From NCBI GenBank assembly GCA_035650735.1, contig DASRGZ010000010.1, positions 1 through 39,483 on the forward strand: DNA of 39,483 bases. Reading direction: 5' to 3'. Made by a program: the position numbers and the translations under genes. The notes under the pieces were generated by a model. That model was not told where the DNA came from, ran no database searches, and saw nothing but the letters and a program-made list of their open reading frames with translations. This document shows positions 534 through 35,005 of the stretch, piece by piece; within the stretch, counting starts at the first letter, position 1, and each line of letters begins with the position of its first letter. The DNA is from Chthonomonadaceae bacterium (lineage in GTDB: Bacteria > Armatimonadota > Chthonomonadetes > Chthonomonadales > Chthonomonadaceae).

Positions 534-556
534 AGCCGGACTCCCGACCTTTCTAA

Positions 557-664
557 CCTAACCCCCCGGCCCCCTTTCCTACAAGGGAAGGGGGTGACCC
601 GGCTTGGGATGGTTGTGGCCCTCACCCCCTATCCCCTCTCCCAAATACTAGGAGAGGGGGAACC
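557..664. repeat. REP-like palindromic repeats (CCCTCACCCC/CCTAACCCCC ... CCCTCTCCC-loop-GGGAGAGGGG family)
   Basis: Two hairpin units at 557-596 and 619-664; the same family recurs at 22446-22628 and 33983-34190. Confidence 0.8.
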
Positions 665-705
665 GAGAAGCCAACGCTGACTCTCCCCTCCCCTAGAATT
701 GGGGA

Positions 706-915
706 TCGCTAGGTGTCGCTAGAGGGTGTTATGCCCTTTTTTGCCTGCTTCGAGAGAGGACTTGGAGGCTGATGACCGCTTGGTACTCGCTAAAAAGCGA
801 GCCCAAAGCCTCTAATGAGCGGCTGGCCTATCTCCTCAAGAGGACCCAAGTGCATCCCACGCTCTAGGTGTCGCTAGGCGGAGGCGCCAACCATTGCAGC
901 GCCGACCCTGGCAGT
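706..915 (+). mobile_element. Short non-coding element (TCGCnAGGTGT...CCATTGyAG..CCGACCCTGGCAGT) inserted in a REP-like palindrome, itself interrupted by a MITE
   Basis: Same ends and core as 22524-22611 (+) and 34003-34099 (-). Confidence 0.65.
719..867. mobile_element. 149-bp MITE with imperfect 16-bp TIRs and a 6-bp target duplication (GTGTCG)
   Basis: CTAGAGGGTGTTATGC (719-734) vs reverse complement of 852-867 CTAGAGCGTGGGATGC, 13/16; GTGTCG at 713-718 and 868-873; equivalent empty site at 22524-22546. Confidence 0.7.
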
Positions 916-1063
916 GGGAAGGGGGTGGGGGCCTCTCTTCTTTCCCTAACGGCATTGGAATGCGCGCGACCTGGAGGGTCCCACGGGCGCATCTGAGCCT
1001 TTTGTGATAAAATGGAAACACTTTTCCCGCTTACACCGCCTAATAGCTGGTTAGCGAGGAAGG

Positions 1064-5340: not shown

Positions 5341-6402
5341 TCAGGCATCCGGCGTGGCGAAGTGGCAGGCGGCGAAGTGGCCGTTGCCGAGCGCGCGCAG
5401 CGGTGGGACTTCGCGGGCGCAAATGTCGGCGGCCAGAGGGCAGCGGGTGCGGAAGCGGCAGCCGGAGGGGATTTTGACCGGGCTGGGCATGTCGCCTTCC
5501 AGCGGGCGGCGTTCCCGACGCCGGGCCGGGTCGGCCACCGGGACGGAGGCAAGCAGCGCCTGCGTGTAAGGGTGCTTTGGAAAGGCAAACACGCGGTCGG
5601 CAGGCCCCTGCTCCACGATAATTCCCAGGTACATCACGGCCACCCGGTCGCAGATGTGCCGGACGACGGAGAGGTCGTGGGCAATGAAAAGGTAGGCGAG
5701 GCCGCGCTGCGTCTGCAACTCCTCCAGCAGGTTGAGTATCTGGGCGCGGATAGAGATGTCGAGCGCCGAGATCGGCTCATCGAGGATAAGCAGTTGGGGG
5801 TCGGTGGCGATGGCGCGGGCGATGCCGATCCGCTGCCGCTGCCCGCCCGAGAACTCGTGGGGATAGCGCGTGACGAAGTCAGGCCGCAGGCCGACCGCCT
5901 CCAACAGTGCCCGGGCGCGCTGCCAGCGTTCCCGCCGCGTGGATCGAGAGCGCCCGGCGGAGCCGTCGCGCCCGTGCGCGTGCAGCGGCTCGGAGACGAT
6001 GTCGCCGACCATCATGCGCGGGTCGAGGGCGGCGAACGGGTCCTGGAAGACGATACCCATGTGACGCCGCAGTTGGCGCAGCGCCTCGCCTTGCAGGGTC
6101 CTAATATCCACGCCGTCGAGTCGAATAGTTCCCGCCGTCGGCTCGATCAGGCGCAGGATGGCCCGTCCCGCCGTGCTCTTGCCGCAGCCGCTCTCGCCGA
6201 CCAGCCCGAGCGTCTCGCCCCGGTGAAGGGTCAGATCAATGCCGTCCACGGCATGAACCGTTTCGCGCACGGAGCGCCAGCTTTCCCACCGCGTCACCAC
6301 AAAATGCTTGACCAGCCCGCGCACTTCCAGCAGCGGCTCCGTCTGCGAGCAGGGGCCGCCCATTAATCCCACGGTCTCACTTTCAATCGGTTGCTTATTC
6401 AT
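5341..6402 (-). CDS. Oligopeptide/dipeptide ABC transporter ATP-binding protein (OppF/AppF-like)
   Basis: [32 protein letters not shown] and GCRFRTRCP...ACH. Confidence 0.95.
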
Positions 6403-6484
6403 TTGCCGAAAGCAGCTTCTCTTTTAACGTTCCGCGAATAGATCGGTGTCTTGGCACGTAGTATATTTAACAGTGATAATCGGC

Positions 6485-6592
6485 CTTGCAACGGGTATTA
6501 ATATAGTACCGACACTGCCCCGCCGAGGCTGCGGGCATGGAGGTAGTCTATCAGAGCTTGCAACGGGTATTAATATAGTACCGACACTGCCC
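6485..6592. CRISPR. Candidate orphan mini-array: two identical 36-bp repeats and one 36-bp spacer (alternatively a duplicated promoter)
   Basis: CTTGCAACGGGTATTAATATAGTACCGACACTGCCC at 6485-6520 and 6557-6592; no cas gene in window. Confidence 0.35.
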
Positions 6593-6674
6593 GGTAATCC
6601 CTCCCAACGGTGTTGACGTATCTCCTCAGCAGCAGGCTGCGTGAGATTGATCCACACGGCTGGGAGTGTCTACC
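6593..6674. mobile_element. 82-bp MITE with IS1-like ends, copy 1
   Basis: GGTAATCCCTCCCAAC...GCTGGGAGTGTCTACC; 8-bp TSD CACTGCCC (6585-6592 / 6675-6682); 81/82 identical to 10425-10506. Confidence 0.85.
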
Positions 6675-6768
6675 CACTGCCCCGCATGGGCATCGATCCT
6701 TAGCCGCGTCATGCGGCGAGATCGCTTCCGCGGCCGTCCGCCCGGCCACTCTCCTGGGAGGTAGAGAC

Positions 6769-7734
6769 ATGAGACTGCGTCCCTTTGCGCGTTTGCTGCC
6801 GAGTTGGGCCGTCGCCCTGGGCCTGCTGGCCGGCCCGGTATTGCCCGTATCTGCCCAGGGATTGCGTTTTCGCGGGATGTCCGGGGGCTTTCGCTTTGCG
6901 CAGCGCCCCGTATTTTCTGGTGGGGCCTTCTTCCGGCCCCGATTTTCGACCTTCTCCCTGCGCTTCAATACGGGCGGATTTCATTTTGGCTTCCATCGGC
7001 ACTTCCACCGCCACTTCTTCTCTTACCCGTACTTCGATTACTCGTACCTCTATACGTATCCGCTCTATACGTATAGCTACTACCCGTTCTATCCGTTCTA
7101 CAGCGAGCCCTACTCCAGCTACTACAGCCCGTCCTATCCCAGCCAGACGACCTACATTATCCCGGTGCCGATCTATCTGGGTGAGAGGGAGGCTCCGCCG
7201 CGCTCGGTAGGGCCGCGCTCCGAGGAGCGCCAAGCTCCCGCGCCGCCTTCCACAGAACCGCGCTCTGAAGAGCGCAAGACACCCCCGCCTTCGACAGAGC
7301 CGGGCCCCGAGGAGGAGAGCGATTACTATCTCTACAAACCCCCCAGGCGCTCCGCGGTGCCCTCGCAGGAGCCGGGCCTGAAGCAGGCGATCTCGGAGAT
7401 CGAGACGGCGTTCCGCAACGGCGATATCGTCCCGTTAGAGCGGCATATCCTCCCGACGAAGACGCTGACGGTTACGGCGCGTGGGCGCGCTCCCTATTCT
7501 CTGACGGGACGCGCCTACCTGGATCAGACGCGAGCGGCCTTCAAGGAGATGGGAACCGTCCGCTACGACCTGGATCAGGTCGAGCCTGCCGGAGAGAATG
7601 CCTGGTCGGTATCGGGCACCCATGTCCTGCGCAGCAAGGAGGGCAAGACGCAGCAGTTCCGCGTCGGCTTTGTGCTCAAGAAACAGGGCGATACCTGGAT
7701 TATTACTGAGGCAAGCGCGGCCCCGATCCGATAG
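6769..7734 (+). CDS. Secreted hypothetical protein: F/H/Y-rich low-complexity region, Pro/Glu linker, C-terminal NTF2-like domain
   Basis: RBS GGAGGT before ATG 6769; signal peptide ending VSA-Q; C-terminus FVLKKQGDTWII is typical of NTF2/DUF4440 folds. Confidence 0.75.
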   Translation: MRLRPFARLLPSWAVALGLLAGPVLPVSAQGLRFRGMSGGFRFAQRPVFSGGAFFRPRFSTFSLRFNTGGFHFGFHRHFHRHFFSYPYFDYSYLYTYPLYTYSYYPFYPFYSEPYSSYYSPSYPSQTTYIIPVPIYLGEREAPPRSVGPRSEERQAPAPPSTEPRSEERKTPPPSTEPGPEEESDYYLYKPPRRSAVPSQEPGLKQAISEIETAFRNGDIVPLERHILPTKTLTVTARGRAPYSLTGRAYLDQTRAAFKEMGTVRYDLDQVEPAGENAWSVSGTHVLRSKEGKTQQFRVGFVLKKQGDTWIITEASAAPIR

Positions 7735-7756
7735 CAGCCACAACCAGAAGCGAACA

Positions 7757-7788
7757 ACGGACGAGGGCCGTTATCATCCCTCGTCCGT
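7757..7788. terminator. Hairpin between convergent genes
   Basis: ACGGACGAGGG, 10-nt loop, CCCTCGTCCGT (11-bp stem). Confidence 0.55.
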
Positions 7789-7808
7789 CAAGCCAGATTA
7801 GGCGAGTC

Positions 7809-8969
7809 TCAGGCGGTTGCGGCCAGCAAAGGCGAGCCTTCCGGGACGCCTTGGGGCAGGAGCCGATACTGGGTGGTGCGGCGCATGGGCGTGTAGCCCG
7901 CTTCACGGATAAGCCGCTCGATCTCCTCGATGGGCATGGTGAAGGCGCACCCGGCGGAGGAGACGACGTTCTCCTCCATCATAGTGCTGCCGAAATCGTT
8001 GAGGCCGTAGCGGAGGGCGACCTGGGCCACCTTCGGCCCCTGCGTTACCCAGGACGCCTGCATGTGCGGGATGTTGTCCAGCATCAGGCGGCTGACCGCC
8101 ACCGTCCGCAGATAGTCAAAGGCGGAGGCGCGCTCTCCCTGCAATTCCGTGCCGTCCGGCTGGAACGACCAGGGAATGAAGGCCGTAAAGCCGCCTGTTT
8201 CGTCCTGTAACTGCCGCGTTTTCACCAGGTGCTCGATCCGGTCTTCCACCGTATCCACCGATCCGTACATCATCGTGACGGTCGTGCGCAGGCCCGCTTT
8301 GTGCGCCTCGCGCATACAGTGGAGCCATTCCTCGGCGGTGTCTTTGTAGGGGGAGATGATCTCGCGCACGCGGTCGGTCAGGATCTCGGCGCCGCCGCCG
8401 GGCACGCTGTCGAGTCCCGCCGCCTTTAAGCGCTGGAACATCGCGGCCAGGGAGAGCTTACTGATCTTGGCGATATAGATGAGTTCGGCAGGCGAGAAGG
8501 CATGTAGGATGACGCCATAAGCGCCGAATCGCTCCTTGATGGCGTGCAGGAGGTCTTCGTACCATTCGATCTTGAGCTTGGGGTTTAGGCCGCCCTGCAT
8601 TAAAATCTCAATGCCGCCCAGATCCACCATCTGCTGAATTTTGTCGAAAATCTGCTCGCGGGTGAGGACATAGCCCTCCTCGTGGCCCGGCACACGATAG
8701 AAGGCACAGAATTTGCAGCGCACCCAGCAGACATTGGTGTAGTTGATGTTGCGCCCGACGACGTAGGTGACGATGTGGTTGGTGTCGGGATGGAGCCGCT
8801 CGCGCACATGGTTGGCCAGAAAGGCCAGTTCCGGCAGATTGGGGTGGTGGAACAGGCGCAGGCCGTCTTCGGCGGTCAACCGTTCGTTGGCGAACACCTT
8901 ATCGGCGATGTCGTCAATGTTGCGTCTTAGATCACGTTCCAGGAGCGCCATCTGTCTCTCCTCTGTCAC
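7809..8969 (-). CDS. mqnC: Cyclic dehypoxanthine futalosine synthase (radical SAM, CofH/MqnC family)
   Basis: RNINYTNVCWVRCKFCAF, SVPGGGAEIL, TGGFTAFIPW, SWVTQG, NDFGSTMMEENVV. Confidence 0.88.
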   Translation of the reverse strand: MTEERQMALLERDLRRNIDDIADKVFANERLTAEDGLRLFHHPNLPELAFLANHVRERLHPDTNHIVTYVVGRNINYTNVCWVRCKFCAFYRVPGHEEGYVLTREQIFDKIQQMVDLGGIEILMQGGLNPKLKIEWYEDLLHAIKERFGAYGVILHAFSPAELIYIAKISKLSLAAMFQRLKAAGLDSVPGGGAEILTDRVREIISPYKDTAEEWLHCMREAHKAGLRTTVTMMYGSVDTVEDRIEHLVKTRQLQDETGGFTAFIPWSFQPDGTELQGERASAFDYLRTVAVSRLMLDNIPHMQASWVTQGPKVAQVALRYGLNDFGSTMMEENVVSSAGCAFTMPIEEIERLIREAGYTPMRRTTQYRLLPQGVPEGSPLLAATA

Positions 8970-15101: not shown

Positions 15102-16091
15102 ATGCTTTGTTTTGGTCTTCGCGGCCAATCTATGCGCCGAATCTGCCGCCGAATCGTTCCCTGGTTCACGGCGGCGATGGTTCTCTCTTTGCTGTTTGGC
15201 TGCCAGAGTCAGCGGGCCTCTTCGGCAGAAACCGTGACCGCAGGCAGCGCGCTGTCTGTCCAGAGCCGTCCCTTGCCCGCCCTCGTCCCGGCGCAGAAGA
15301 TCGAGCCGGGCATCGTCGTCCATGAGGTCTCGCTGCCGCGCGGCCAGAGGACGAGCAAGGTCTGGATTTACCTGCCGGAAAAACCGGCTGCCGGAAAGCT
15401 GCCCGTTGTGCTGATCGCCCCGGCGGGGAGCCGCATGTTTCATGGGATGGCGCTAGGCGAGGGAGATCGCCCTGAACATCTACCTTACGTTCGCGCCGGG
15501 TTTGCCGTCGTCGCCTATGAGATAGACGGCAACGTCGGCGACCATCCAGACGAACAGGAGATTCTGGCGGCGGCACGCGCGTTTAAGAGCGCGGAGGCCG
15601 GGCTAGCCAATGCGCGCGCGGCGCTGAACTATGCGCTGGCGAAAGTGCCGAACCTCGATCCCACGCGCATCTATACGGCAGGCCATAGCTCGGCAGCAAC
15701 GACCTCGCTGCTGGTTGCGGAAAACGAGCCGCGCGTTCAAGCCTGCATCGCCTATGCTCCGGTGTGCAATGTCGTGAAGTTTCTGGGCGACAGAGTTATT
15801 AATATGTTTGACCAGAGGATTCCCGGATTCGGCGACTTTATCAATCGCACCTCGCCGGACACACATATCCAGAAGCTGCGCTGCCCGGTCTTTCTCTTCC
15901 ACGCGGACGATGACTCCGTCGTCTCCACAGAGGAGGTCGCCACCTTTGCCGAGGAACTCAAAAAGACAAATCCGAACGTGACATTCGTGCAGGTTCCCAC
16001 CGGCGATCATTACGAGTCGATGATTCAGCAGGGAATACCGAAAGCCATCGCCTGGCTCAAAAGCCTTCCCGCAAAAAGCGCCGCTCGGTAA
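15102..16091 (+). CDS. Alpha/beta hydrolase (S9/dienelactone hydrolase-like), probable lipoprotein
   Basis: Lipobox LLFG-C; DPTRIYTAGHSSAA, PVFLFHADDDSVV, GDHY. Confidence 0.85.
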   Translation: MLCFGLRGQSMRRICRRIVPWFTAAMVLSLLFGCQSQRASSAETVTAGSALSVQSRPLPALVPAQKIEPGIVVHEVSLPRGQRTSKVWIYLPEKPAAGKLPVVLIAPAGSRMFHGMALGEGDRPEHLPYVRAGFAVVAYEIDGNVGDHPDEQEILAAARAFKSAEAGLANARAALNYALAKVPNLDPTRIYTAGHSSAATTSLLVAENEPRVQACIAYAPVCNVVKFLGDRVINMFDQRIPGFGDFINRTSPDTHIQKLRCPVFLFHADDDSVVSTEEVATFAEELKKTNPNVTFVQVPTGDHYESMIQQGIPKAIAWLKSLPAKSAAR

Positions 16092-16144
16092 TTGGCCCCA
16101 AGATGAACAAGAGCTGACCTTCTGCCCGGCTCTCCAGGAAAACG

Positions 16145-17032
16145 ATGCTACGACTGATCTGGCGATACAGGCTCTCGTACCTGTTTCTGCTGCCGACCTT
16201 TCTGTTCCTGGCCGTGTTCAACTACTTCCCGGCTCTCTCCGGGCTGTATCACGCCTTCACGGAATGGGAGACGGGCAGCAGCGCGCGCTTCATCGGCTTG
16301 GAGAACTTCCGGCGCATGGCGCAGGACGAGTTCCTGCGGCTCAGCATCGTTAATCAAGTCTGGCTTTTGGTCGCAAACTTGCTCAAAACCCTGGTCGTAC
16401 CGCTGGCGGTGGCGGAGATGCTATTCCATCTGCGGTCGCGCCGCGTGCAGTACGTCCTGCGGACGCTGTTTCTCGTGCCGATGGTTGTGCCGGGGATGGT
16501 GGGCGTGCTGCTGTGGGGATTCATCTACGACCCCAACATCGGCCTGCTCAACAACGCGCTTACCGCCATCGGCCTCAAGGGGCTGACGCGGGCCTGGCTC
16601 GGCGACTGGCATACGGCGCTGCCCGCGCTCGTCGGCGTCGGCTTCCCCTGGATCGGCGGGCTGGCCCTGCTGATCTACCTGGCGGGGCTGATGTCCATTC
16701 CGCAGGACGTGCGCGACTCCAGCGCGGTAGATGGCGCGTCGGACTGGCGGCGCTTTTGGGCCATAGACCTGCCGCTGCTGCGCGGACAGATGAAACTGCT
16801 GGCCGTGCTGACCATCATCGGCACGTTACAGGATTTCGGCAGCATCCTGGTCTTAACGGGTGGCGGGCCGGGCCTGGCGACGCACGTGCCCGCGCTGCAT
16901 ATGTATTACCAGGCGTTCCGGTTCGGGCACTATGGCTACGCCTCCGCAATCGGGTTCGTGCTGTTTCTGGTGATCCTGGCGTTCACGGTGGCGAACATGA
17001 AGCTGGCGCAGTCGGCAGTCGAACTGGGGTGA
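16145..17032 (+). CDS. Carbohydrate ABC transporter permease 1
   Basis: FIGLENF, YLAGLMSIP..DSSAVDGAS (EAA-like loop), LTGGGPG, YGYASA. Confidence 0.93.
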   Translation: MLRLIWRYRLSYLFLLPTFLFLAVFNYFPALSGLYHAFTEWETGSSARFIGLENFRRMAQDEFLRLSIVNQVWLLVANLLKTLVVPLAVAEMLFHLRSRRVQYVLRTLFLVPMVVPGMVGVLLWGFIYDPNIGLLNNALTAIGLKGLTRAWLGDWHTALPALVGVGFPWIGGLALLIYLAGLMSIPQDVRDSSAVDGASDWRRFWAIDLPLLRGQMKLLAVLTIIGTLQDFGSILVLTGGGPGLATHVPALHMYYQAFRFGHYGYASAIGFVLFLVILAFTVANMKLAQSAVELG

Positions 17033-17044
17033 GCATGGCCGTTC

Positions 17045-17147
17045 CAGGCTGGCTTCACGAGAGGGCGGCAAACAGAGGGTGTCGGGAGCAGGGTGTCGGG
17101 GGTCGGAAAACCGTTCACACAGGCTGGCTTCATAAGAGGGCGGCAAA
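17045..17147. repeat. 28-bp direct repeat (2 mismatches) flanking short GGGTGTC-type heptamer repeats
   Basis: CAGGCTGGCTTCAyrAGAGGGCGGCAAA at 17045-17072 and 17120-17147. Confidence 0.65.
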
Positions 17148-17150
17148 GGC

Positions 17151-18035
17151 ATGGCGCAGAGCGTTTCCGGGTTAAGGCGTTCGGGCGGACAGGCATTGCT
17201 CCTGGCAGCATTAGTAGGGCTGTTGGGGCTGTCGCTCGTGCCGTTCGGGATGATGGTCGTGATGTCCCTGAAGAGCAACGCCCAGATTTTCGCCCATTTC
17301 TGGGAACTGCCGCATCCGGCGCGCTGGGACTTCTACGCGCGGGCCTACTCTGCGCTCGTCGGCTACATCCTCAACACGCTGATTGTGGCGGCGGCGACCG
17401 TCCTCGGCGTGCTGGTCCTCTCCTCGATGGCCGGCTACACTTTCGCCCGCCACCGCTTCCCCGGACGCGAGGGACTGTACTACCTCATCCTGGCCCTGCT
17501 GATGATCCCCGGCGTCCTGACCCTCATTCCCACGTATGCCCTGGTCAAAGCCATTCAGCTTCCGGCCCTGCATATCGGGGCGTGGACCTTCGGGCCGTTT
17601 GCGCTCTTAAACACGCGCTGGGCGCTGATCCTGCCTTATATCTCCGGCGGGCAGGTCTTCGGCATCCTGCTCTGCCGCAGCTTCTTCCAGTCCTTGCCGG
17701 AGGAACTGTTCGAGGCGGCGCGGCTGGACGGCGCGGCGGAACTCGACGTCTACCGGCGCATCGCCCTGCCGCTCTCCCGACCTATCCTGGCGACCGTCGC
17801 CATCATGACGGTACTCTCCGTCTATAACGACTACATCTGGCCGCTGGTCGCCCTCAGCGATAGCTCCCTTCAGACCTTCTCCGTCGGCGTGACCAAGTTC
17901 GCGGGCGAGTTCAACCTGGACTACGGCCCGACGCTGGCCGGTTACGTCCTGGGCAGCCTCCCATTGCTGCTGCTGTTTGCCCTCGGAATGCGGCAGTTTA
18001 TCCAGGGCATCACCGCCGGGGCGCTCAAAGCCTGA
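17151..18035 (+). CDS. Carbohydrate ABC transporter permease 2
   Basis: AGYTFARHRFPGR, LPEELFEAARLDGA, NDYIWPL, QFIQGITAGALK. Confidence 0.93.
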   Translation: MAQSVSGLRRSGGQALLLAALVGLLGLSLVPFGMMVVMSLKSNAQIFAHFWELPHPARWDFYARAYSALVGYILNTLIVAAATVLGVLVLSSMAGYTFARHRFPGREGLYYLILALLMIPGVLTLIPTYALVKAIQLPALHIGAWTFGPFALLNTRWALILPYISGGQVFGILLCRSFFQSLPEELFEAARLDGAAELDVYRRIALPLSRPILATVAIMTVLSVYNDYIWPLVALSDSSLQTFSVGVTKFAGEFNLDYGPTLAGYVLGSLPLLLLFALGMRQFIQGITAGALKA

Positions 18036-18062
18036 CTCCATCCAAAAGGAAATGGTGATACG

Positions 18063-19847
18063 ATGATGCGGTGCGATCCTCTGTCTCTCCTCCTGACCTG
18101 CGCGATGGTTCCTCTCTTCCTGATAGCCGTGACCGGAACCGCCTCCGCTTCCAAGCCCAAACCCGACGCGCGCGATACCTATAGCGATACCTGGACGGCC
18201 ACCGATGCCCTGGGCCGCACGCTGCCCGGTTTTGCGGAGTGCGGCCCGCCGCGACCGGGTAAGTTCGTCGGTATTTTCTACTTCCTCTGGCAGGACAAAC
18301 AGCACGATAACGGCCACCTCTACGATAACTCGAAGCTGCTGGCGGCCAACCCGACCCATCCGCAGTACGGGCCGGAACACGCCTTCCACTGGTGGGGCGA
18401 GCCGCATCTGGGCTACTACCTGTCCAACGACGAGTTTGTTATTCGCAAGCACGCGCAGATGCTGGCGGATGCGGGCGTGGATGTGATCGTCTTCGATGTG
18501 ACCAACGCCCTCACCTACGATGAGGACTACCTGACCCTTTGCCGGGTGTACGAGCAGATACGCAAGACCGAGCGTGCGACGCCGCAGATCGCCTTCCTGG
18601 CCAACACGGACAGCGCGAAGGTCGTGCGGCATCTCTACGAAACGTTCTACTCCAAAAACCTCTACCCCGACCTCTGGTTCCGGTGGAAGGGCAAGCCGCT
18701 GCTGATGGCCCCCTCGGAGGGGCTGAGTCCGGAGATCAAGAACTTCTTCACCCTCCGCCAGTCGTGGGCCTGGACCGACCCGAACGGCTGGTTCGGCAAC
18801 GGCAAGGACAAATGGCCCTGGCTGGACCACTATCCGCAGAAGCCGGGCTGGCATGACGCGCCCAACAAGCCGGAAGAGATCGCCGTCTGCACCGCCCAGC
18901 ACGCGACCTCCAACATCGGGCGCAGCTTCCACGACGGCAAGGAGCCGCCGCCCGATCAGATCGCGCCGGAACAGGGCCTCTGCTTCGCCGAGCAGTGGCG
19001 GCGCGCCCTGGAGGTAGACCCGGAGTTCGTCTTTATCACCGGCTGGAACGAGTGGATCGCGATGAGGTTTGTCGGCAATGGCGGTGAGCACTTTCTGGGG
19101 AAGACGCTTAAGGCGGGCGAGACGTTCTTTGTGGATCAGTACAACCAGGAGTACAGCCGGGACATCGAGCCGATGCGGGGCGGGCATAGCGACAGCTACT
19201 ACTACCAGATGGTCGCCAACATCCGCCGCTTCAAGGGCGTGCGCCCGCGTCCCAAAGCCTCCGCTCCGAAGACGATCCGCATAGACAGCGGCTTCCGGCA
19301 ATGGAACGAGGTCGGGCCGGAGTTTCTGGACGATGTGGAGGATACGGCGCATCGCAATCATCCAGGGTGGGGCGGCACGGGGCCTTATATTAACACGACC
19401 GGGCGGAACGATTTTGACGTGCTGAAGGTAGCGCGCGATAACACGTACCTCTACTTCTACGTCCGCACCCGCCAGCCGATCACGCCGCCCGAAGGCGAGA
19501 ACTGGATGCTGCTCCTGATCAATAGCGATGGCGATGCGCACACCGGCTGGGAGGGCTACGACTTTATTCTCAACCGTACCCGGCGGGACGCCTCCACCTG
19601 TGTTCTGGAGCGGAATGTGGGCGGCTGGAAATGGGAGCCGGTGGCCGACGTGCCGTTCAAAGTCGTCGGCAGGGAGATGCACCTGGCCGTGCCGCGCGCC
19701 GCGCTGGGGCTGGAGCCGCACAAAGGCCCGCTCCACCTCGAGTTCAAATGGGCGGATAACGTTCCCGCCTCCGGCAACATCCTGGACTTTATAGACCAGG
19801 GCGATGTCGCCCCGAATGGGCGCTTCAACTACCGCTATGAGGAATGA
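18063..19847 (+). CDS. Secreted putative glycoside hydrolase (GH99/GH71-like TIM barrel plus C-terminal beta domain)
   Basis: Signal peptide; VGIFYFLW, HWWGEP.LGYY.S.D..VIRKHAQMLADAGVD, GKPLL, FITGWNEW, DIEP. Confidence 0.65.
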   Translation: MMRCDPLSLLLTCAMVPLFLIAVTGTASASKPKPDARDTYSDTWTATDALGRTLPGFAECGPPRPGKFVGIFYFLWQDKQHDNGHLYDNSKLLAANPTHPQYGPEHAFHWWGEPHLGYYLSNDEFVIRKHAQMLADAGVDVIVFDVTNALTYDEDYLTLCRVYEQIRKTERATPQIAFLANTDSAKVVRHLYETFYSKNLYPDLWFRWKGKPLLMAPSEGLSPEIKNFFTLRQSWAWTDPNGWFGNGKDKWPWLDHYPQKPGWHDAPNKPEEIAVCTAQHATSNIGRSFHDGKEPPPDQIAPEQGLCFAEQWRRALEVDPEFVFITGWNEWIAMRFVGNGGEHFLGKTLKAGETFFVDQYNQEYSRDIEPMRGGHSDSYYYQMVANIRRFKGVRPRPKASAPKTIRIDSGFRQWNEVGPEFLDDVEDTAHRNHPGWGGTGPYINTTGRNDFDVLKVARDNTYLYFYVRTRQPITPPEGENWMLLLINSDGDAHTGWEGYDFILNRTRRDASTCVLERNVGGWKWEPVADVPFKVVGREMHLAVPRAALGLEPHKGPLHLEFKWADNVPASGNILDFIDQGDVAPNGRFNYRYEE

Positions 19848-19935
19848 GGGCTGGCTGTGTCCGCGAGAGGAATTATGGACCTACACCGGAGCCAAGTAAG
19901 CTGACAGAGAAACCAGTTAACAGTCGCCCCCTGCC

Positions 19936-20120
19936 CTTGCCGGGCATTGAAAATACCCGGCTTGAGGGCCTACGGCCAAGCGCCCTCGCGGACGCCCTGT
20001 CGCGGCAGGTTCTTCCTGCTCTACGAAGGCAGCCACCTGCCGATAGGCCGGTTGTTCCGTCCGGTAGGACGGTTGGCGGCAGAGCCGCCCTAGAGCCGGG
20101 TACTTTCAGTGCCCGGCAAG
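19936..20120. repeat. Inverted pair of 27-bp REP-like palindromes
   Basis: CTTGCCGGGCATTGAAAATACCCGGCT (19936-19962) vs reverse complement of 20094-20120, 25/27. Confidence 0.8.
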
Positions 20121-20212
20121 CGTCTATGAGAACACTGTATGTCCAAGATCGACTAAACTGGACATATCCGGTATGCTATCTTTACGGAATGACTGGCAGA
20201 AAGGATAACCTG

Positions 20213-20513
20213 ATAAACGTACACCTGACCCCCCGAACTCGAACAGATCATACAAAGCCAGGTACAAAGTGGACGCTATAATTCCGCGAGCGAGGTCGTG
20301 CGCGAGGCCCTGCGGCTGATGGAGGAGCGCGACCAGATCAAAGCCATGCAGAAAGAGGAACTCCCCAAGAAGATTGAGGCAGGGCTTAAATCGCTGGAAG
20401 AGGGCAAAGGTGTTGACGGTGAAGCCGTGTTTGCCCGTATAGAAGCCGAACCTGATGAAGAAATCCGCGCCGAGGACCAGAAAGCTGAGCGGGAACGGAA
20501 CAGGCATAACTGA
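20213..20513 (+). pseudogene. ParD/CC2985-family antitoxin, frameshifted, no toxin partner
   Basis: (I)NVHLTP / ELEQIIQSQVQSGRYNSASEVVREALRLMEERD; ATA in place of ATG at 20213; +1 shift in C6 run 20229-20234. Confidence 0.8.
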
Positions 20514-20538
20514 AACGCTATATCCTTACGTCAGTCCC

Positions 20539-21270
20539 TTATCCGTCGGTGCGGATGTCGCGCAAGTACTTGCAGTGCCCATCGAGGAAGAGGCGGTTGC
20601 GTCCGCCGAAGTGGACGGCATGGCCGCGCAGATTAGCAGGGATCGACTTGATCGTACGGGGGAAATAGGGGTCTACGGCCAGTTCCACATCGGCAGGGCC
20701 ATCCGGCATCCCGGCTTGGGGATTGTTGGCCGCGCGCAGATCGTCCACCGCCTGCAACTCGGTCTTGCCCCAGAGGTCGTCGAGCGGGATGGGATCGTCC
20801 GGGCGGTCGAAGCGCCAGAGCCAGTAGTAGGTCGTGGGCGCGTCCGGGGCCGGAGAGATTTTCTGGGCAACCTGGGGAGCGTTTCCAAGCGCAGAGCCGG
20901 CCACGCTGGGGCATATCCAGAGGGCGTCATTGTGCGTGTAAGGGGAGAGCACGACGGCGGCCCAGCCCGCGCGGGGATCGGAGGGCGGCCACGACGTCCA
21001 GGGACGGTAGCCGCCCGGCAGGCTCAGCTTGAGGTCGCGCCGATCCGGCAGGCGGTCGTCATTATCCTGCACGTAGAGGGCGAAGGCCATGCCGATCTGG
21101 CGCAGATTGCTCAGGCAGGCGGTCTGACGTGCCTTCTCGCGGGCCCTGGAGAGGACGGGAAACAGGATCGCCGCTAGGATCGCAATAATGGCGATCACGA
21201 CGAGCAGCTCGATCAGGGTGAACCCTCCCAGGCTCTTTTTCCACCCGGAGGAATGAAATCGGCCAGGCAT
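20539..21270 (-). CDS. Prepilin-type N-terminal cleavage/methylation protein with DUF1559 and H-X9-DG motif
   Basis: [30 protein letters not shown]...[22 protein letters not shown]. Confidence 0.92.
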
Positions 21271-21307
21271 ACTTGCCCTCTTTCTTCAAAAGCATAAGCG
21301 GGAACGA

Positions 21308-21790
21308 TCAGCCGGCGTGACCGGCAGCTTTAGTGGGCACAATGTTGATGGTGCCGTCCATCTCCAGCACGGCAAACCGGATGTCTTTCAGGTCGGCTTG
21401 CTCGCGCTCTCGCAGCGCCTCCTGCACATCGGCCTGCGTGAGCCCGGCGCGGCGCAGGTTCTCTTCAATAAAGTGGCCGTTCTGGATCAGCAGCACCGGC
21501 CCGGCCAGGATAAGATGGCGCAGCCGTCGAGAGCGCAGGCAGAGCAGCGTCAAAACCCGATTAATGAGGAGTAGCGTGGTAGCGCTGACCAGTCCGGCCT
21601 GCAAGCTGGTATTGGCGTTGACCATCGCCGTCTCCACTGCGCTGCCCAAAATGATCACCACCACCAGGTCCACGACCGTCAACTGCCCCAGGGTGCGCCG
21701 GTTTAACGCCCGCAGCGCGAAGATCAAGAAAAGATAGATGGCGGCGGTGTGCAGCGCCACAGGCAGCAGCGGCATCCAGAACGAGCGCAT
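21308..21790 (-). CDS. DUF421 (YetF-like) membrane protein, paralog 1
   Basis: LR..RRTLGQLT..D, PVLLIQNG, LRE, FAVLEMDGTINIVP. Confidence 0.9.
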   Translation of the reverse strand: MRSFWMPLLPVALHTAAIYLFLIFALRALNRRTLGQLTVVDLVVVIILGSAVETAMVNANTSLQAGLVSATTLLLINRVLTLLCLRSRRLRHLILAGPVLLIQNGHFIEENLRRAGLTQADVQEALREREQADLKDIRFAVLEMDGTINIVPTKAAGHAG

Positions 21791-21885
21791 ACGTTTTCCC
21801 CAAAAAGCTTCCCAAGCGCGCGGCCCAGGAACAAACGGCCCGCGAATTTACGCTCCTATATCTGACTCCCGTATCCATAGGAGAC

Positions 21886-22434
21886 GTGCCTATGCTAAAT
21901 CACTGGCTGAATGAGGTCTTATCGCATCCGACGCCCCTGGGCGCGGCGATTATCGTCGGGAGGACGAGCCTGATCTATCTGTTCCTTGTGGCCGGGCTGC
22001 GGCTGCTGGGCAAGCGCGAGCTGGGCCAGATGAACATCTACGATCTGGTGCTGCTCATCGTGCTGGCAAACGCCGTTCAGAACGCGATGGTCGGCGACGA
22101 TACCACGCTCGGCGGCGGGATTATCGCCGCCCTGACGCTGCTGATCCTCAACCGCTTTTTCACGCTGGCCCTGACCCGCTCGCCAAAGCTGGAACGCCTC
22201 ATGTGCGGCGAGCCCGTCCTGCTTGTCAACGACGGACAGCTCCTCACAGACCGCATGCGGCGCGAGGGCATCACGCGCGAGCAGGTGATGGCGGCGCTTC
22301 GGGAGCATGGCCTGAGCCAGCTGGACCAGGTCCATATGGCCGTGCTGGAAGTGGACGGCACGATCAGCGTGGTTCCCCGCGAGGCTGAAGTGCATAAAAC
22401 GCGCCATCACTACCGGGCGCTGCGTCTGCCCTAA
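21886..22434 (+). CDS. DUF421 (YetF-like) membrane protein, paralog 2
   Basis: LRLLGKRELGQMNIYD, GEPVLLVNDG, AVLEVDGTISVVP. Confidence 0.9.
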   Translation: MPMLNHWLNEVLSHPTPLGAAIIVGRTSLIYLFLVAGLRLLGKRELGQMNIYDLVLLIVLANAVQNAMVGDDTTLGGGIIAALTLLILNRFFTLALTRSPKLERLMCGEPVLLVNDGQLLTDRMRREGITREQVMAALREHGLSQLDQVHMAVLEVDGTISVVPREAEVHKTRHHYRALRLP

Positions 22435-22445
22435 CTTGAACATAG

Positions 22446-22628
22446 CCCTCACCCCCTGCCCCCTCTCCCACAGCGTGGGAGAGGGGGCAGGGGGAAGCCG
22501 GGTCCCTCCCTTCCCTTTTAGGGTCGCAAGGTGTCGCGAGGCGGAGGGCCGAATTATTGCAGGCCCGACCCTGGCAGTGGCCCGAACCATTGTAGGGCCG
22601 ACCCTTGCAGTGGGGGACGGGGGTTAGG
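22446..22628. repeat. REP-like palindrome cluster containing the TCGC...GGCAGT element (22524-22611)
   Basis: CCCTCACCCCCTGCCCCCTCTCCCA-CAGCG-TGGGAGAGGGGGCAGGGGG, then an interrupted CCCTTCCC hairpin ending GGGGGTTAGG. Confidence 0.8.
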
Positions 22629-22664
22629 TAAGTCCGCGCAGGGAGGGCTGAGGAGCTTAGCGCT

Positions 22665-23192
22665 ATGACCCGCGCATTTGTCTGGTTTCTCTCTCTAATT
22701 AGCGCCCGGACGGCAATTGTCCTGCTCTTTTTGATCGTGGGGCTGCGGGTGCTGGGCAAGCGCCAGATCGGGCAGATGAACATCTACGATCTGGCGCTGG
22801 TGATGGCGCTCGCCAACGCCGTTCAGAACGCGATGACCGCCGGCAAGGGCGATCTGTCCGTCGGCATCGTTTCGGCGGGGACGCTGCTGCTGATCGGGGC
22901 GGCGCTGACGCTGGTGTTCGTGCGCCTGCCCAGGCTGGAGGAGCGCCTGGTCGGCACGCCGACGCTGCTCATCAATGACGGACATCTTCTGCGGGACCGC
23001 CTGCGTCGTGAGCGCGTGACCGAGGAGGAGGTCATGGCGGCGCTGCGCCGGCATGGGCTTACCGATCCCGGCGAAGCGCTAATGGCCGTGCTGGAGGTAG
23101 ACGGCACGATCAGCGTGGTGCCTAAGACGGCACCGCACCGGCGCACCCGTAAGCGCGTAGCGTCCGGCAAAGCCACCTCACCCCATCCCTAA
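22665..23192 (+). CDS. DUF421 (YetF-like) membrane protein, paralog 3
   Basis: LRVLGKRQIGQMNIYD, GTPTLLINDG, AVLEVDGTISVVP. Confidence 0.9.
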   Translation: MTRAFVWFLSLISARTAIVLLFLIVGLRVLGKRQIGQMNIYDLALVMALANAVQNAMTAGKGDLSVGIVSAGTLLLIGAALTLVFVRLPRLEERLVGTPTLLINDGHLLRDRLRRERVTEEEVMAALRRHGLTDPGEALMAVLEVDGTISVVPKTAPHRRTRKRVASGKATSPHP

Positions 23193-29460: not shown

Positions 29461-29478
29461 CCGAACAAGCTAAATGCC

Positions 29479-33951: not shown

Positions 33952-33982
33952 ACCTCTATTATACACAACTGCCGTGAAAATG

Positions 33983-34190
33983 GCCCTCACCCCCTGTCCC
34001 CTACTGCCAGGGTCGGGGCTACAATGGACTGCCAGGGTCGGCAAGGGTACGGCCCTTGCCGACCCTGGCTACACCTTGCGACAGCCCTCCGCCTGGCGAT
34101 CCACGCTGCGGGAGAGGGGGAACGGAAAAGCCGGGTCCCCCTTTCCCTAGCGAGGGACGAGCGGATAGGGAAGGGGGACGGGGGGTTAGG
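33983..34190. repeat. REP-like palindrome cluster containing two nested TCGC...GGCAGT elements (34003-34099, minus strand)
   Basis: GCCCTCACCCCCTGTCCCCT-[insert]-TCCACGCTGCGGGAGAGGGGG ... CCCCTTTCCCTA..TAGGGAAGGGGG..GGGGGTTAGG. Confidence 0.8.
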
Positions 34191-35001: not shown

Positions 35002-35005
35002 CGCC

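What the first reader, a model, noticed from the sequence alone, without database searches (positions are those of the whole stretch)
706..915. REP-targeting mini-element with non-inverted conserved ends (three loci)
Seen: a ~60-100-bp non-coding element starts TCGC(t/a/c)AGG and ends GACCCT(G/T)GCAGT, with a GGCGGAGG...CCATTGyAG core. It occurs at 706-915 (+), 22524-22611 (+) and 34003-34099 (-). Each time it interrupts the purine-rich arm of the same CCCTCTCCC/GGGAGAGGGG-type palindrome family, right after GGG/GGA and before AGGGG/GGGAAG/GGGGG, always in the same orientation relative to that arm. It has no TIRs and no obvious TSD. Knowledge: IS110-family elements such as IS621, and HUH-type elements, insert site-specifically into REP sequences without canonical TIRs or TSDs. 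Inference: this is a non-autonomous, orientation-specific parasite of a repeat family, mobilised in trans by an unidentified recombinase or transposase. It is the best candidate here for an undescribed system.
Basis: partly seen in the sequence, partly recalled or inferred. Interest (0 to 1): 0.7.

Follow-up and report, generated by a model that had tools for sequence, protein, structure and literature searches.

The report
Self-nesting 45-base hairpin repeat
The three loci are copies of a 45-base DNA hairpin that occurs several hundred times in this soil bacterium, always slotted at fixed spots into other palindromic repeats and into copies of itself, so it looks like a very small mobile element related to REP repeats.

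Summary
All three loci carry one discrete unit (E): TCGC-N-AGG CGGAGG, a 5-7 bp stem-loop, then GACCCT-N-GCAGT, 44-45 nt long.

- **Abundance and spread.** The 3' box occurs 542 times in this 6.5-Mb Chthonomonadales-like genome. Of 67 other genomes of the order, one has 7 copies and the rest none.
- **Shape.** E is a hairpin, not TIR-less. The closing stem is GCNAGG/CCTNGC, there is an invariant tandem G.A/A.G, and the inner stem covaries (147-158 of 165 paired against about 80-90 in shuffles).
- **Nesting.** Arrays read H^nT^m. 80 of 96 balanced arrays reduce to one canonical unit when the inner unit is cut out.
- **Hosts.** E sits in one orientation at fixed points in about a dozen other repeat families. 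It replaces 2-4 nt (usually GA, AA or AG). Canonical empty sites are common; exact "clean" empty sites were not found.
- **Locus 1.** It also holds an unrelated IS630-type MITE.
- **Candidate enzymes.** The assembly has no IS110 recombinase, no reverse transcriptase and no long autonomous copy. It has two RAYT-like Y1 genes, both possibly defective. The cognate REP of one resembles E's closing stem and hosts E in two genera.

Best reading: a REP-class, trans-mobilised hairpin element. The driver and mechanism are inferred. It is a new variant of a known kind.

The parts
706..915 (+). E array, locus 1. Head box H1 is 706-713, then TG. Head box H2 is 716-721 plus 867-868, split by a MITE, then TG 869-870. 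A complete 45-nt unit follows at 871-915 (H3 871-878, tail box 904-915). The architecture is H-H-H-T.
   Evidence: boxes; one search lists 871-915 as an exact unit; one search gives the fold of 871-915
720..866 (.). Unrelated nested MITE, not part of E. The body is 722-864, flanked by a duplicated TA inside CTAG. The ends are an imperfect inverted repeat, GAGGGTGTTATGC... and ...GCATCCCACGCTC.
   Evidence: 43 BLAST rows, about 40 copies at 93-99% identity spanning the same ends
681..705 (+). Host palindrome, ctx1 type: C-rich arm, loop and the start of the G-rich arm (CTCTCCCCTCCCCTAGAATTGGGGA). E follows directly.
916..933 (+). Rest of the ctx1 host G-rich arm and tail (GGGAAGGGGGTGGGGGCC).
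22524..22611 (+). E array, locus 2 (H-H-T-T). The outer unit is split into 22524-22531 and 22579-22611. TG is 22532-22533. The inner complete unit is 22534-22578, sitting at the 'alpha' self-site where CGGA is replaced.
22503..22523 (+). Host palindrome, ctx2 type, 5' part (..GTCCCTCCCTTCCCTTTTAGGG).
22612..22629 (+). Host ctx2, 3' part (GGGGGACGGGGGTTAGGT).
34003..34099 (-). E array, locus 3 (H-H-T-T). The outer unit is 34099-34084 plus 34027-34003, 'beta' self-site, with TG at 34083-34082. The inner part is 34081-34028. Its own core is a perfect 17-bp palindrome, GCCAGGGTCGGCAAGGG/CCCTTGCCGACCCTGGC.
   Evidence: (DNA fold -36.5 kcal/mol, z -7.7)
34100..34125 (-). Host palindrome, ctx3 type, 5' part (..CCCCCTCTCCCGCAGCGTGGA).
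33982..34002 (-). Host ctx3, 3' part (AGGGGACAGGGGGTGAGGGCC).
555..602 (-). Empty ctx2-type host palindrome in the same arm orientation as filled ones (..CCTTCCCTTGTAGG-AAA-GGGGGCCGGGGGGTTAGGT). The unoccupied site is about 575-577.
22446..22499 (-). Empty ctx3-type host palindrome beside locus 2 (CCCCTCTCCC ACAGCGT GGGAGAGGGG core). The unoccupied site is about 22465-22467.

Best explanation
**What it is.** E is a 44-45-nt, gene-less, REP-class DNA hairpin that has spread, or once spread, as a discrete unit.

**Shown.**
- It has fixed ends, TCGC...GCAGT.
- Its closing stem is GCNAGG/CCTNGC, with a bulged C and an invariant tandem G.A/A.G.
- Its inner stem keeps pairing through compensatory changes.
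- It always lies inside another repeat. The site is either the 3' (G-rich) arm or loop of about a dozen palindromic repeat families, or one of five positions inside another E. It is always in one orientation.
- It replaces 2-4 nt, usually the GA, AA or AG of a G-R-R / G-N-A trinucleotide.
- Repeated self-insertion gives properly nested H^nT^n arrays.

**Inferred.**
- E descends from the cognate REP ('REP4': GTCCGCNAGG-ACG-CYTGGCCG-N-AGGCCC...) of a RAYT-type Y1 HUH gene lineage. The REP4 core hairpin resembles E's closing stem.
- E is or was moved in trans on single-stranded DNA by such an enzyme, which recognises the hairpin foot and transfers the cut strand into exposed G-N-A steps of other folded hairpins.
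- Composite (already nested) units then move as wholes.

**Not explained.** The chemistry that removes the 2-4 target nucleotides.
For: **Discrete unit, abundant, lineage-restricted.**
- 209 exact units and 542 tail boxes, with reversed controls at 0.
- 174 matches in this genome, 7 in G010 and 0 in 66 other genomes of the order.

**Hairpin.** On 165 distinct 45-mers:
- Pairs 15-31, 16-30 and 17-29 are paired in 156, 147 and 158 sequences. Shuffle means are 92, 79 and 79, with maxima of 110, 96 and 94. Three Watson-Crick pair types occur at each position.
- Positions 11-35 are G.A in 141 sequences and positions 12-34 are A.G in 162.
- Folds agree with this structure.

**Nesting.**
- Architectures are almost all H+T+ (HT 140, HHTT 62, HHHTTT 32 and so on, against TH 10).
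- 80 of 96 balanced arrays with two or more levels reduce to one canonical unit. The rejoined outer units are 44 nt (32), 45 nt (79) or 47 nt (1) long and have complementary stems.
- Insertions fall at five positions in the unit. The dinucleotide before the inner unit is TG 99, GA 17, TA 6, other 3.

**Hosts.**
- Filled and empty copies share flanks: 55 against 49 in REP4, and junction tables for three other hosts.
- The same composites occur in several hosts.
- Nearly every copy lies in a repeat context.

**RAYT link.**
- Two Y1_Tnp genes are flanked by inverted REP4 and REP9, both of which host E.
- Orthologous RAYTs in G001 and G010 carry the same REP4 flank.
- In G010, all six E copies whose context was read sit at one REP4 site, TTGGC-CGAA-GGCCC becoming TTGGC-TG-E-GGCCC.
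- In the CCCTTCCCT host, filled sites are enriched for a loop that makes GTAG six nt upstream: 37 of 56 against 20 of 68, Fisher p 6e-5. GTAG is the tetranucleotide that E. coli TnpA-REP needs (PMC3479197, passages read).

**DNA rather than RNA.**
- There is no orientation bias relative to genes: 112 co-oriented against 97 anti-oriented, p 0.33.
- G.T (11) is about as frequent as A.C/C.A (13) in the covarying stem.
- There is no Rfam match on E.
Against: - No movement was observed. Public runs hold the locus only as contigs that break at E. The joints across 34001/34101 have 23-24-nt sides and extra letters, so they look like paralogous empty sites and not alleles.
- E does not flank either RAYT gene. 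REP4 and REP9 do.
- RAYT-1 reads HVP where its orthologues read HVH. RAYT-2 is split by a frameshift. The proposed driver may therefore be dead, or the calls may contain assembly errors.
- Y1/HUH transposition as known from IS608 or TnpA-REP does not remove target bases. Here 2-4 nt are always replaced and clean X-Y empty sites were not found.
- E itself carries no GTAG tag. Only 59 of 357 copies have GTAG within 12 nt upstream.
- The GTAG enrichment and the covariation counts are not corrected for shared descent of copies.
- The central N/N' position of the closing stem pairs in only 87 of 165 sequences, against a shuffle mean of 74.
- The same-genus genome G001 (89% complete, 610 contigs) has a RAYT-1 orthologue with a REP4 flank but no E.
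- GC skew is too weak to test a replication-strand bias: 121 against 133.
Confidence: 0.55

Rival explanations
1. **No dedicated transposase.** E spread by a few illegitimate events. After that it moved by gene conversion, homologous recombination or template switching between paralogous repeats. Microhomology-guided copying from a filled repeat into an empty one would carry along neighbouring variants such as TG or A.
For: - Junctions are replacements and differ by 1-2 nt between hosts. The base or two before E is changed together with it: CG to TG at self-sites (TG in 99 of 125), and GG to GA in ctx1 (38 of 51 filled) and ctx3 (37 of 78 filled).
- No clean empty sites were found.
- Locus 3 holds a 17-bp perfectly symmetrised arm, as expected from intrastrand templated repair.
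- Both RAYT genes look impaired.
Against: - E has the same exact ends in about a dozen unrelated flank contexts and at five self-sites. That needs many independent, precise founder events.
- Simple head-to-tail neighbours are nearly absent (1 strict case), which points to targeting rather than local copying.
- Many identical copies exist (top variants 36, 18, 16 and 16 copies).
Confidence: 0.2
2. **Not mobile on its own.** E is an optional internal module of composite REP/BIME-like repeats. Whole composites, host plus E, are what multiply. The apparent 'insertions' are old, one per family.
For: - Nearly all E copies lie inside other repeat families.
- In G010, all six E copies whose context was read sit at one site of one host family.
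- Some host+E composites are near-identical in 18-36 copies.
Against: - Within one host family and one site, the E content varies from single units to four nested levels of different variants.
- The same E composite occurs in at least five host families.
- Nesting keeps each outer unit's two halves matched.
Confidence: 0.12
3. **Functional structured RNA.** E is a cis-regulatory or small RNA motif, and the covariation reflects RNA-level selection.
For: - The inner stem covaries and there is a conserved tandem G.A motif.
- The location is intergenic: 20 of 374 fall inside crude gene calls.
- All three window copies are co-oriented with their flanking genes.
Against: - Genome-wide there is no orientation bias relative to genes: 112 against 97.
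- There is no excess of G.U over A.C (11 against 13).
- No Rfam family matches E.
- There are hundreds of copies, nested up to four deep, with no fixed gene neighbours.
Confidence: 0.06
4. **First reader's lead.** E is mobilised by an IS110-family (IS621-like, bridge-RNA) recombinase that targets REP sequences.
For: From general knowledge, IS110-family elements target REPs without TIRs or TSDs. E shows no TSD.
Against: - There is no DEDD_Tnp_IS110 match in the genome (0 of 14 candidates scored; 97.6% complete). The same search rings in 6 control genomes.
- No long copy with E ends exists.
- E is a hairpin with inverted ends.
Confidence: 0.02

Closest known systems
REP / REPIN elements with RAYT (TnpA-REP, Y1 HUH) genes. 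Sources: Bertels & Rainey 2011, PMC3116915 (passages read); RAREFAN preprint 10.1101/2022.05.22.493013 (passages read); Messing et al. 2012, PMC3479197 (passages read).
   Same: - Short extragenic imperfect palindromes in hundreds of copies.
- Conserved ends with a variable middle whose hairpin is kept.
- Lineage-restricted.
- Single-copy RAYT-type genes flanked by inverted REPs are present in the same genome.
- E's closing stem resembles that REP.
   Different: - E is a single hairpin, not a REP doublet.
- E has no GTAG or CGTC tag of its own.
- E does not flank the RAYT genes.
- E is recursively nested in itself.
- E replaces 2-4 target nucleotides.
REPs lodged inside other palindromes (Di Nocera et al. 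2013, PMC3733652, passages read). Examples there: T. roseum GTAG-23 within CCGSSCC(n3,4)GGSSCGG targets, of which hundreds of empty copies exist, plus A. variabilis and H. neapolitanus cases.
   Same: A REP-type repeat regularly sits inside another small palindrome, and free copies of the target palindrome exist in a GC-rich genome.
   Different: - The word 'nested' does not occur in that paper's text, and none of the 11 passages read describes self-nesting.
- E uses about a dozen hosts.
- E sits in the 3' arm as well as in loops.
- The sequences are unrelated.
Small dispersed repeats SDR1-8 of Nostocaceae (Elhai et al. 2008, Genome Res 18:1484). The paper is not held. I saw it only as reference 43 of PMC3116915 and in one passage of PMC5861425. 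The details are recalled.
   Same: Recalled: very small gene-less repeats with hairpins supported by compensatory changes, found inside other repeats (SDR5 in HIP1, per PMC5861425). Some are nested within copies of themselves.
   Different: - SDRs are 21-27 nt (recalled) and cyanobacterial.
- The sequences and host sites are unrelated.
- No RAYT link has been proposed, as far as I recall.
BIMEs of E. coli (mosaics of REPs), and ERIC/IRU long forms with internal inserts. Both are recalled; BIME is also named in PMC3733652.
   Same: Modular, mosaic arrays built from a few short palindromic motifs. Extra segments sit at fixed internal positions.
   Different: BIMEs alternate REP orientation with linker motifs and are not nested. 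E arrays are strictly nested in one orientation.
IS200/IS605 elements and their hairpin-ended derivatives.
   Same: Single-strand hairpin recognition by a Y1 HUH enzyme, no TIR-type ends and no TSD.
   Different: - Those elements have separate left and right subterminal hairpins and insert 3' of a fixed tetra- or pentanucleotide without loss of bases.
- The one IS605-like element in this genome (C52) has ends unlike E.

Membership tests
REP/REPIN-RAYT system | Short, high-copy, extragenic imperfect palindrome whose hairpin is conserved | tested here: met
   542 tail boxes. Inner-stem covariation in 147-158 of 165 sequences against shuffle means of 79-92. 20 of 374 copies fall inside crude gene calls.
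REP/REPIN-RAYT system | Conserved GTAG (or CGTC) tetranucleotide at the foot of the hairpin | tested here: not met
   E starts TCGC, or TG-TCGC. GTAG lies within 12 nt upstream in only 59 of 357 copies and is supplied by the host. It is, however, enriched at filled against empty sites of one host: 37 of 56 against 20 of 68.
REP/REPIN-RAYT system | A RAYT (Y1 HUH) gene flanked by inverted copies of the repeat | tested here: not met
   Two Y1_Tnp genes are flanked by inverted REP4 and REP9, not by E. REP4 and REP9 host E, and the REP4 core resembles E's closing stem.
REP/REPIN-RAYT system | Replicative unit is an inverted REP doublet (REPIN) | tested here: not met
   E is a single hairpin. Its arrays are nested in one orientation.
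REP/REPIN-RAYT system | Catalytically intact RAYT (HUH plus Tyr) | tested here: inconclusive
   RAYT-1 reads DHVPL where the G001 and G010 orthologues read DHVHL, with the Tyr motif present. RAYT-2 has an intact HIH and Tyr, but its N-terminal 40 aa lie in another frame. Assembly error has not been excluded.
IS110 family (IS621-like) non-autonomous derivative | DEDD recombinase gene in the genome, and long copies with the same ends | tested here: not met
   PF01548 gives 0 matches. No long copy was found among 96 orphan heads.
MITE (DDE-transposase derivative) | Terminal inverted repeats plus a target-site duplication | tested here: not met
   Subterminal 6-7-nt inverted boxes exist, but there is no duplication. 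Instead 2-4 nt are lost. By contrast, the MITE inside locus 1 meets both criteria: TA duplication and inverted ends.
IS200/IS605-type hairpin-ended element | Distinct left and right subterminal hairpins; insertion 3' of a fixed tetra- or pentanucleotide without loss of bases | tested here: not met
   E is one hairpin spanning the whole unit. The bases before E vary (A, G, C, TG) and target bases are replaced.
Retroelement-derived repeat | Reverse transcriptase in the genome | tested here: not met
   PF00078 gives 0 matches and 0 candidates.
Small dispersed repeats (SDR, Elhai 2008) | Very small repeats with a covarying hairpin, lodged in other repeats and in themselves | not testable with these tools
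   The behaviour is alike. The paper is not held and the sequences are from another phylum. This is resemblance only.
Rfam RNA families | Match to a curated covariance model | tested here: not met
   No match at gathering scores over the whole window. At E-values up to 10, only weak miRNA-type hits on the neighbouring palindrome at 22432-22527, with none centred on E.

The most novel reading that the evidence does not exclude
E may belong to a widespread but undescribed class of 'hairpin-into-hairpin' mobile DNA. These are the smallest known insertion units. They are moved on single-stranded DNA by a reaction that swaps a G-N-A/G-R-R step of a folded target hairpin for the element, a loop- or arm-replacement reaction that loses 2-4 nt. 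That is unlike any characterised HUH, DDE, serine or tyrosine transposition. Recursion then builds branched DNA junctions. The enzyme could be a RAYT acting in an unknown mode, or something not yet recognised.
Probability: 0.2. Interest if true: 0.8.

Novelty: new variant of a known kind. Interest (0 to 1): 0.55.

Why it matters
How REP-type repeats spread is still unsettled after forty years. This genome offers an unusually readable record:
- a 45-nt unit with exact ends;
- hundreds of filled and empty sites;
- a strict nesting grammar;
- a consistent 2-4-nt replacement at G-R-R steps;
- a traceable tie to one RAYT/REP lineage present in two genera.

Together these give concrete substrates (E, REP4, GNA-loop targets) for a biochemical test of what RAYT-like enzymes do. 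If the replacement junction reflects the reaction itself, it points to a mode of single-strand DNA transfer that has not been described.

In practice, such nested hairpins break short-read assemblies: 61 of 448 contig ends here carry an E box. They can also be mistaken for regulatory RNAs.

Tried and rejected
- **Collection scan for E.** Own-genome records are probably hidden. I used the genome search instead.
- **Rfam.** Nothing on E, either at gathering scores or with permissive E-values around locus 2.
- **Long autonomous copy.** 96 heads without a tail within 150 nt were all decayed tails, chance coding matches or contig ends.
- **IS110 and reverse transcriptase.** No matches.
- **The IS605-like element on C52 (truncated tnpA plus tnpB).** Its ends are not E-like. 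I did not inspect the second TnpB, on C206.
- **Orientation relative to genes.** No bias. Gene calls there are my own crude GC3-based ORF picks.
- **Replication-strand bias via GC skew.** The skew is too weak in this genome (|skew| about 0.01-0.03). The result was 121 against 133, which is uninformative.
- **Sequencing runs.** No RNA holder is listed. The four DNA runs I laid are contigs that stop at the repeats. The joints skipping 34002-34100 have only 23-24 nt on one side and carry extra letters, so I read them as paralogous empty repeats and not alleles. Parts without cover say nothing.
- **Circle-junction proxy.** Strict head-to-tail E-E junctions in the genome number 1. The bare 9-mer GCAGTTCGC (118 hits) is near chance.
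- **Clean-insertion model with shifted ends.** No X-Y empty form exists for any tested host or self-site.
- **Orthologous locus in the nearest named relative** (Chthonomonadales MAG, 80% aa identity). Synteny upstream differs, so it is not informative.
- **G019 orthologue of locus 2.** It has an 80-nt spacer where this genome has 271 nt. The comparison is between genera only.
- **K-turn reading of the tandem G.A.** The register, with a 1-nt bulge separated from the G.A pairs by a G-C pair, does not fit the k-turn pattern as I recall it. No tool tested this.
- **Elhai 2008.** The paper could not be read because it is not held.
- **One literature search** was swamped by unrelated hits.
Full report
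**1. The observation.** Reading the three loci shows the stated ends and core. A scan of the window finds exactly these three places with both a head box (H, [T/G][C/G]GC-N-AGG) and a tail box (T, GACCCT-N-GCAGT).

The window is contig C10 of a 6.52-Mb, 224-contig, 63% G+C assembly. Motif counts in that genome:
- GACCCT[G/T]GCAGT occurs 485 times and TCGCNAGGCGGAGG 436 times.
- The full pattern TCGCNAGGCGGAGG-N18-30-GACCCTNGCAGT occurs 209 times, against 0 for the reversed control.
- CCGACCCTNGCAGT occurs 542 times, control 0.

The family is real and abundant. All three window copies are intergenic: glyA to a HEAT-repeat gene, between two DUF421 genes, and between a Cu-oxidase_4 gene and a cysteine desulfurase gene.

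**2. Anatomy of the unit.** The commonest form is a 45-nt unit, with 44-nt variants (290 and 102 of 394 single units). On the 165 distinct 45-mers:
- Positions 3-8 pair with 42-37 (GC-N-AGG / CCT-N'-GC). Five of these six pairs are invariant.
- The central N/N' pairs in only 87 of 165, against a shuffle mean of 74.
- C9 is unpaired. G10-C36 pairs in 154 of 165.
- Positions 11-35 are G.A in 141 sequences, and 12-34 are A.G in 162. This is an almost invariant tandem G.A/A.G.
- Positions 13-33 and 14-32 are G-C.
- Positions 15-31, 16-30 and 17-29 are paired in 156, 147 and 158 of 165 sequences, through three different Watson-Crick pair types each. Shuffles give means of 92, 79 and 79 and maxima of 110, 96 and 94. 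Sliding the partner by 1-2 columns drops the total from 461 to 100-192 of 495.

Two loop types dominate: GAACC[A/G]TTG[C/T]A with a 5-bp stem, and GCCGTAA with a 7-bp stem. E is therefore a hairpin whose ends are conserved and whose inner stem is kept by compensation.

G.T (11) and A.C/C.A (13) mispairs are equally common in the covarying stem, so neither strand is favoured as an RNA. Predicted DNA folds of the three window copies reproduce the closing stem and the nested branches. A single unit is not more stable than G+C-matched shuffles (z -0.6). The nested copies give z -1.9 and -7.7. These counts are not corrected for common descent of the copies.

**3. Nesting.** With strict boxes, 417 chains hold at least one H and one T. 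Their architectures are almost all heads first, then tails:

| Architecture | Count |
|---|---|
| HT | 140 |
| HHTT | 62 |
| HHHTTT | 32 |
| HHT | 30 |
| HHHTT | 26 |
| HTT | 24 |
| TH | 10 |

. Reading the arrays shows that each outer unit is split in two by a complete inner unit.

I tested this by iterative excision. In the 96 balanced arrays with two or more levels, I removed the innermost unit plus the 2 nt before it and put 4 filler letters in its place.
- 80 of 96 arrays reduce to a single canonical unit. The 16 failures that I looked at are hybrids or decayed boxes.
- The rejoined outer units measure 44 nt (32), 45 nt (79) or 47 nt (1), which matches the free-unit lengths.
- The split falls at five positions: index 8 (29 cases), 12 (17), 15 (4), 16 (44) and 20 (18).
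- The two preceding bases are TG 99, GA 17, TA 6, other 3.
- The outer stems stay complementary (for example 5 of 5 in 35 units and 4 of 4 in 24).
- At the two main self-sites, the canonical CGGA (after AGG) or CGAA (start of the loop) is replaced by TG plus the inner unit.

Strict head-to-tail neighbours are nearly absent (1 case).

Locus 2 of the window is an index-8 nest. Locus 3 is an index-16 nest whose inner core has become a perfect 17-bp palindrome. Locus 1 reads H-H-H-T once the MITE is removed.

**4. Where E sits.** Of 357 arrays with at least 40 nt of flank, 217 fell into nine contexts defined by regular expressions. The other 140 I read by eye. Nearly all are variants of those contexts or of three or four further repeated contexts. 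Three rows with unique-looking flanks look like chance box matches. So E lies essentially always inside another repeat family, in one orientation. Comparing filled and empty copies:

| Host | Empty form | Filled form | Counts and calls |
|---|---|---|---|
| ctx2 | ...CCCTTCCCT-nnn-AGGG-AA-GGGGG[C/A]CGGGGGGTTAGGT | AGGG-E-GGGGG | AGGG-E 53, AGGA-E 4; 62 canonical empties of that arm; no filled junction of the other-arm (GGGGGTGA) type among those listed, 38 empties there |
| ctx1 | CCCCTCCCC-loop-GGGGG-AG-GGG | GGGGA-E-GGG | 38, or G-E 9 |
| ctx3 | GCGTGGG-AG-AGGGG | GCGTGGA-E-AGGGG | 37, plus a GCGCCGGGGG-E subtype 20 |
| REP4, site a | GTCCGC-N-AG-GA-CGCYTGG | ...AG-E-CGC | 55 filled, 49 empty |
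| REP4, site b, and ctx8 | GGCC-GN-A-GGCC | GGCC-E-AGGCC, or GGC-TG-E-GGCC | |

Forms in which the two flanks are simply joined (X-Y) do not exist for any of these hosts or for the self-sites. The counts are 0, 0, 0, 0, 0, 0 and two single chance-looking hits, against 62-99 canonical empties.

Hence E replaces 2-4 nt, usually the RR of a G-R-R or G-N-A step. I cannot explain this junction with known transposition chemistry.

The window itself holds an empty ctx2 site (about 575-577) and an empty ctx3 site (about 22465-22467) next to the filled ones.

**5. Distribution.** The nearest named relative is a Chthonomonadales (Armatimonadota) MAG, 80% identical on the cysteine desulfurase.
- Among 40 relatives, the exact unit occurs only once outside this genome, at the end of a G019 contig. 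There, 141 nt are 98-100% identical to copies in this genome, while the adjoining rpoB region gives no megablast match. G019 has none of the ctx2 host repeats. A chimeric contig end or a transfer cannot be told apart.
- With 3 mismatches allowed, across 68 genomes of the order, E occurs 174 times here, 7 times in G010 (another genus; 79% complete) and nowhere else. Controls are 0.
- In G010, the six copies I read all have one stem variant and all sit at REP4 site b, with CGAA replaced by TG-E.
- The same-genus genome G001 (89% complete, 610 contigs) shows none.
- The ctx2 host repeat (137 copies here) is not found in the 40 relatives either.
- Absence in fragmented MAGs is weak evidence, because repeats assemble poorly. 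Here, 61 of 448 contig ends carry an E box.

**6. Candidate machinery.**
- No IS110-type recombinase and no reverse transcriptase were found.
- There are two TnpB genes. The one on C52 belongs to an IS605-like element whose ends are unlike E.
- Y1_Tnp gives three matches.
  - RAYT-1 (C166:80092-80433, 166 aa) is flanked by inverted REP4 copies.
  - RAYT-2 (C166:12640-12873) is flanked by inverted REP9 copies. REP9 hosts E at GGGCTG-TG-E-GGGCAAGCC.
  - The third match is the truncated tnpA of the C52 element.
- RAYT-1 reads DHVPL where its orthologues in G001 and G010 (56% identical) read DHVHL. Those orthologues carry the same REP4 sequence downstream.
- RAYT-2 has its first ~40 residues in another frame.
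- RAYT-like genes are common in the family: 18 of 24 genomes, 1-8 matches each.
- The REP4 core, GCCAGG-ACG-CCTGGC inside GTCCGCCAGGACGCCTGGCCG, looks like E's closing stem without the inner hairpin. I read E as a derivative of that REP. This is an inference from resemblance.
- One further link: in ctx2, filled sites more often have an xGT loop, which creates GTAG six nt before E. The counts are 37 of 56 against 20 of 68 empties of the same arm (odds ratio 4.7, p 6e-5). GTAG at the hairpin foot is required by E. coli TnpA-REP, which cuts at CT dinucleotides on either side of the hairpin (PMC3479197, passages read). Founder effects could produce the same enrichment. Overall only 59 of 357 arrays have GTAG within 12 nt upstream.

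**7. DNA or RNA, function or parasite.**
- E's strand is independent of the flanking genes: in tandem gene pairs, 112 co-oriented and 97 anti-oriented, p 0.33. There are 53 convergent and 40 divergent cases (my own crude gene calls).
- No Rfam family matches E.
- No RNA run is listed for the locus, which says nothing either way.
- Many copies are identical. The top variants have 36, 18, 16, 16 and 13 copies out of 394 single units in 200 distinct sequences. This fits recent multiplication or conversion.

I therefore favour a DNA-level mobile or once-mobile element over a structured RNA.

**8. Comparison with what is known.**
- REP/REPIN-RAYT systems share the small size, the hairpin with conserved ends and variable middle, lineage restriction and the single-copy Y1 gene (PMC3116915 and the RAREFAN preprint, passages read). 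E fails three of their defining features: it has no tag of its own, it does not flank the RAYT, and it is not a doublet.
- Di Nocera et al. (PMC3733652, passages read) report REPs regularly lodged inside other small palindromes, with free target copies in Thermomicrobium roseum. That is the closest printed precedent for the host relationship. The word 'nested' does not occur in that text.
- Elhai et al. 2008 (SDR elements) is, as I recall it, the closest precedent for very small self-nesting repeats. I could not read it. I saw only its citation and a sentence on SDR5 in HIP1 (PMC5861425).
- My literature searches found no description of repeats in Armatimonadota, and none of a recursive H^nT^n hairpin grammar with target replacement. 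That is a statement about those searches only.
- Earlier notes of this scan list similar 'self-nesting hairpin' units in Deinococcales, Poribacteria, Omnitrophota and others. They are unchecked AI notes. They lower my estimate of uniqueness and raise the chance that this is a general class.

**9. Verdict.**
It is wrong on TIRs and on IS110.
- The most likely account is a REP-class hairpin element tied to a RAYT/REP4 lineage, expanded and diversified in this genome, inserting into G-R-R steps of other hairpins and of itself.
- Shown: the unit, its structure, the nesting grammar, the host sites and the replacement junction.
- Inferred: mobility itself, the RAYT as driver and the single-strand mechanism.
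- Unexplained: the loss of 2-4 target bases.

Noticed in passing
window 720-866 (inside locus 1): An IS630/mariner-style MITE. The body is about 143 bp, with imperfect inverted ends, inserted at CTAG with TA duplicated. About 40 copies at 93-99% identity occur in the genome, many at contig ends. I did not look for an autonomous partner.
   Followed up: partly
G000:C166:80092-80433 (L001) and C166:12640-12873 (L002), outside the window: Two RAYT-like Y1 genes, each flanked by its own inverted REP family. One has HVP in place of the HUH motif. The other is split by a frameshift after about 40 residues. Orthologues in G001 and G010 are intact.
   Followed up: partly
window 34028-34081 (-): The inner unit of locus 3 has lost the asymmetric CGGAGG side. 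It is a perfect 17-bp palindrome, as if one arm had been rewritten from the other.
   Followed up: no
L004 = G019:C128:6542-8158 (contig end, upstream of rpoB): A 141-nt E composite that is 98-100% identical to copies in this genome, sitting in a genome of another genus that otherwise lacks E and the host repeat. It could be a chimeric contig end or a horizontal transfer.
   Followed up: partly
for example G000:C40:~5600-5760, C105:~29310, C155 end, C62/C63/C131/C187 ends: A recurrent composite in which a decayed tail (GACGGCCAGT) is followed by a ~30-nt spacer (ATTCGCAACCCTTCCACCTTGATGTTGA) and a new TG-E unit. At least 14 BLAST hits, often at contig ends. It may be part of a longer repeat.
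   Followed up: no
window 21000-21235: This stretch matches dozens of places (72-89% identity) in both G001 and G019. It is presumably a conserved domain of a multi-copy gene family overlapping the ORFs at 20455-21270.
   Followed up: no
G000:C52:~6200-7900: An IS200/IS605-type element with a truncated ~50-aa tnpA remnant and a 392-aa tnpB. A second TnpB match lies at C206:28007-28204.
   Followed up: partly
window 15500-35400, in runs X1-X3: Contigs up to 9.5 kb from soil (2017) and mine (2024) metagenomes of three studies match the window with 0 differences. Nearly the same strain is present in all of them.
   Followed up: no
genome-wide, for example window 555-602, 610-660, 22446-22499: The genome carries a whole set of G/C-rich palindromic repeat families, at least a dozen, often adjacent to each other in intergenic regions. 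One of them (137 copies) was not found in 40 relatives.
   Followed up: partly
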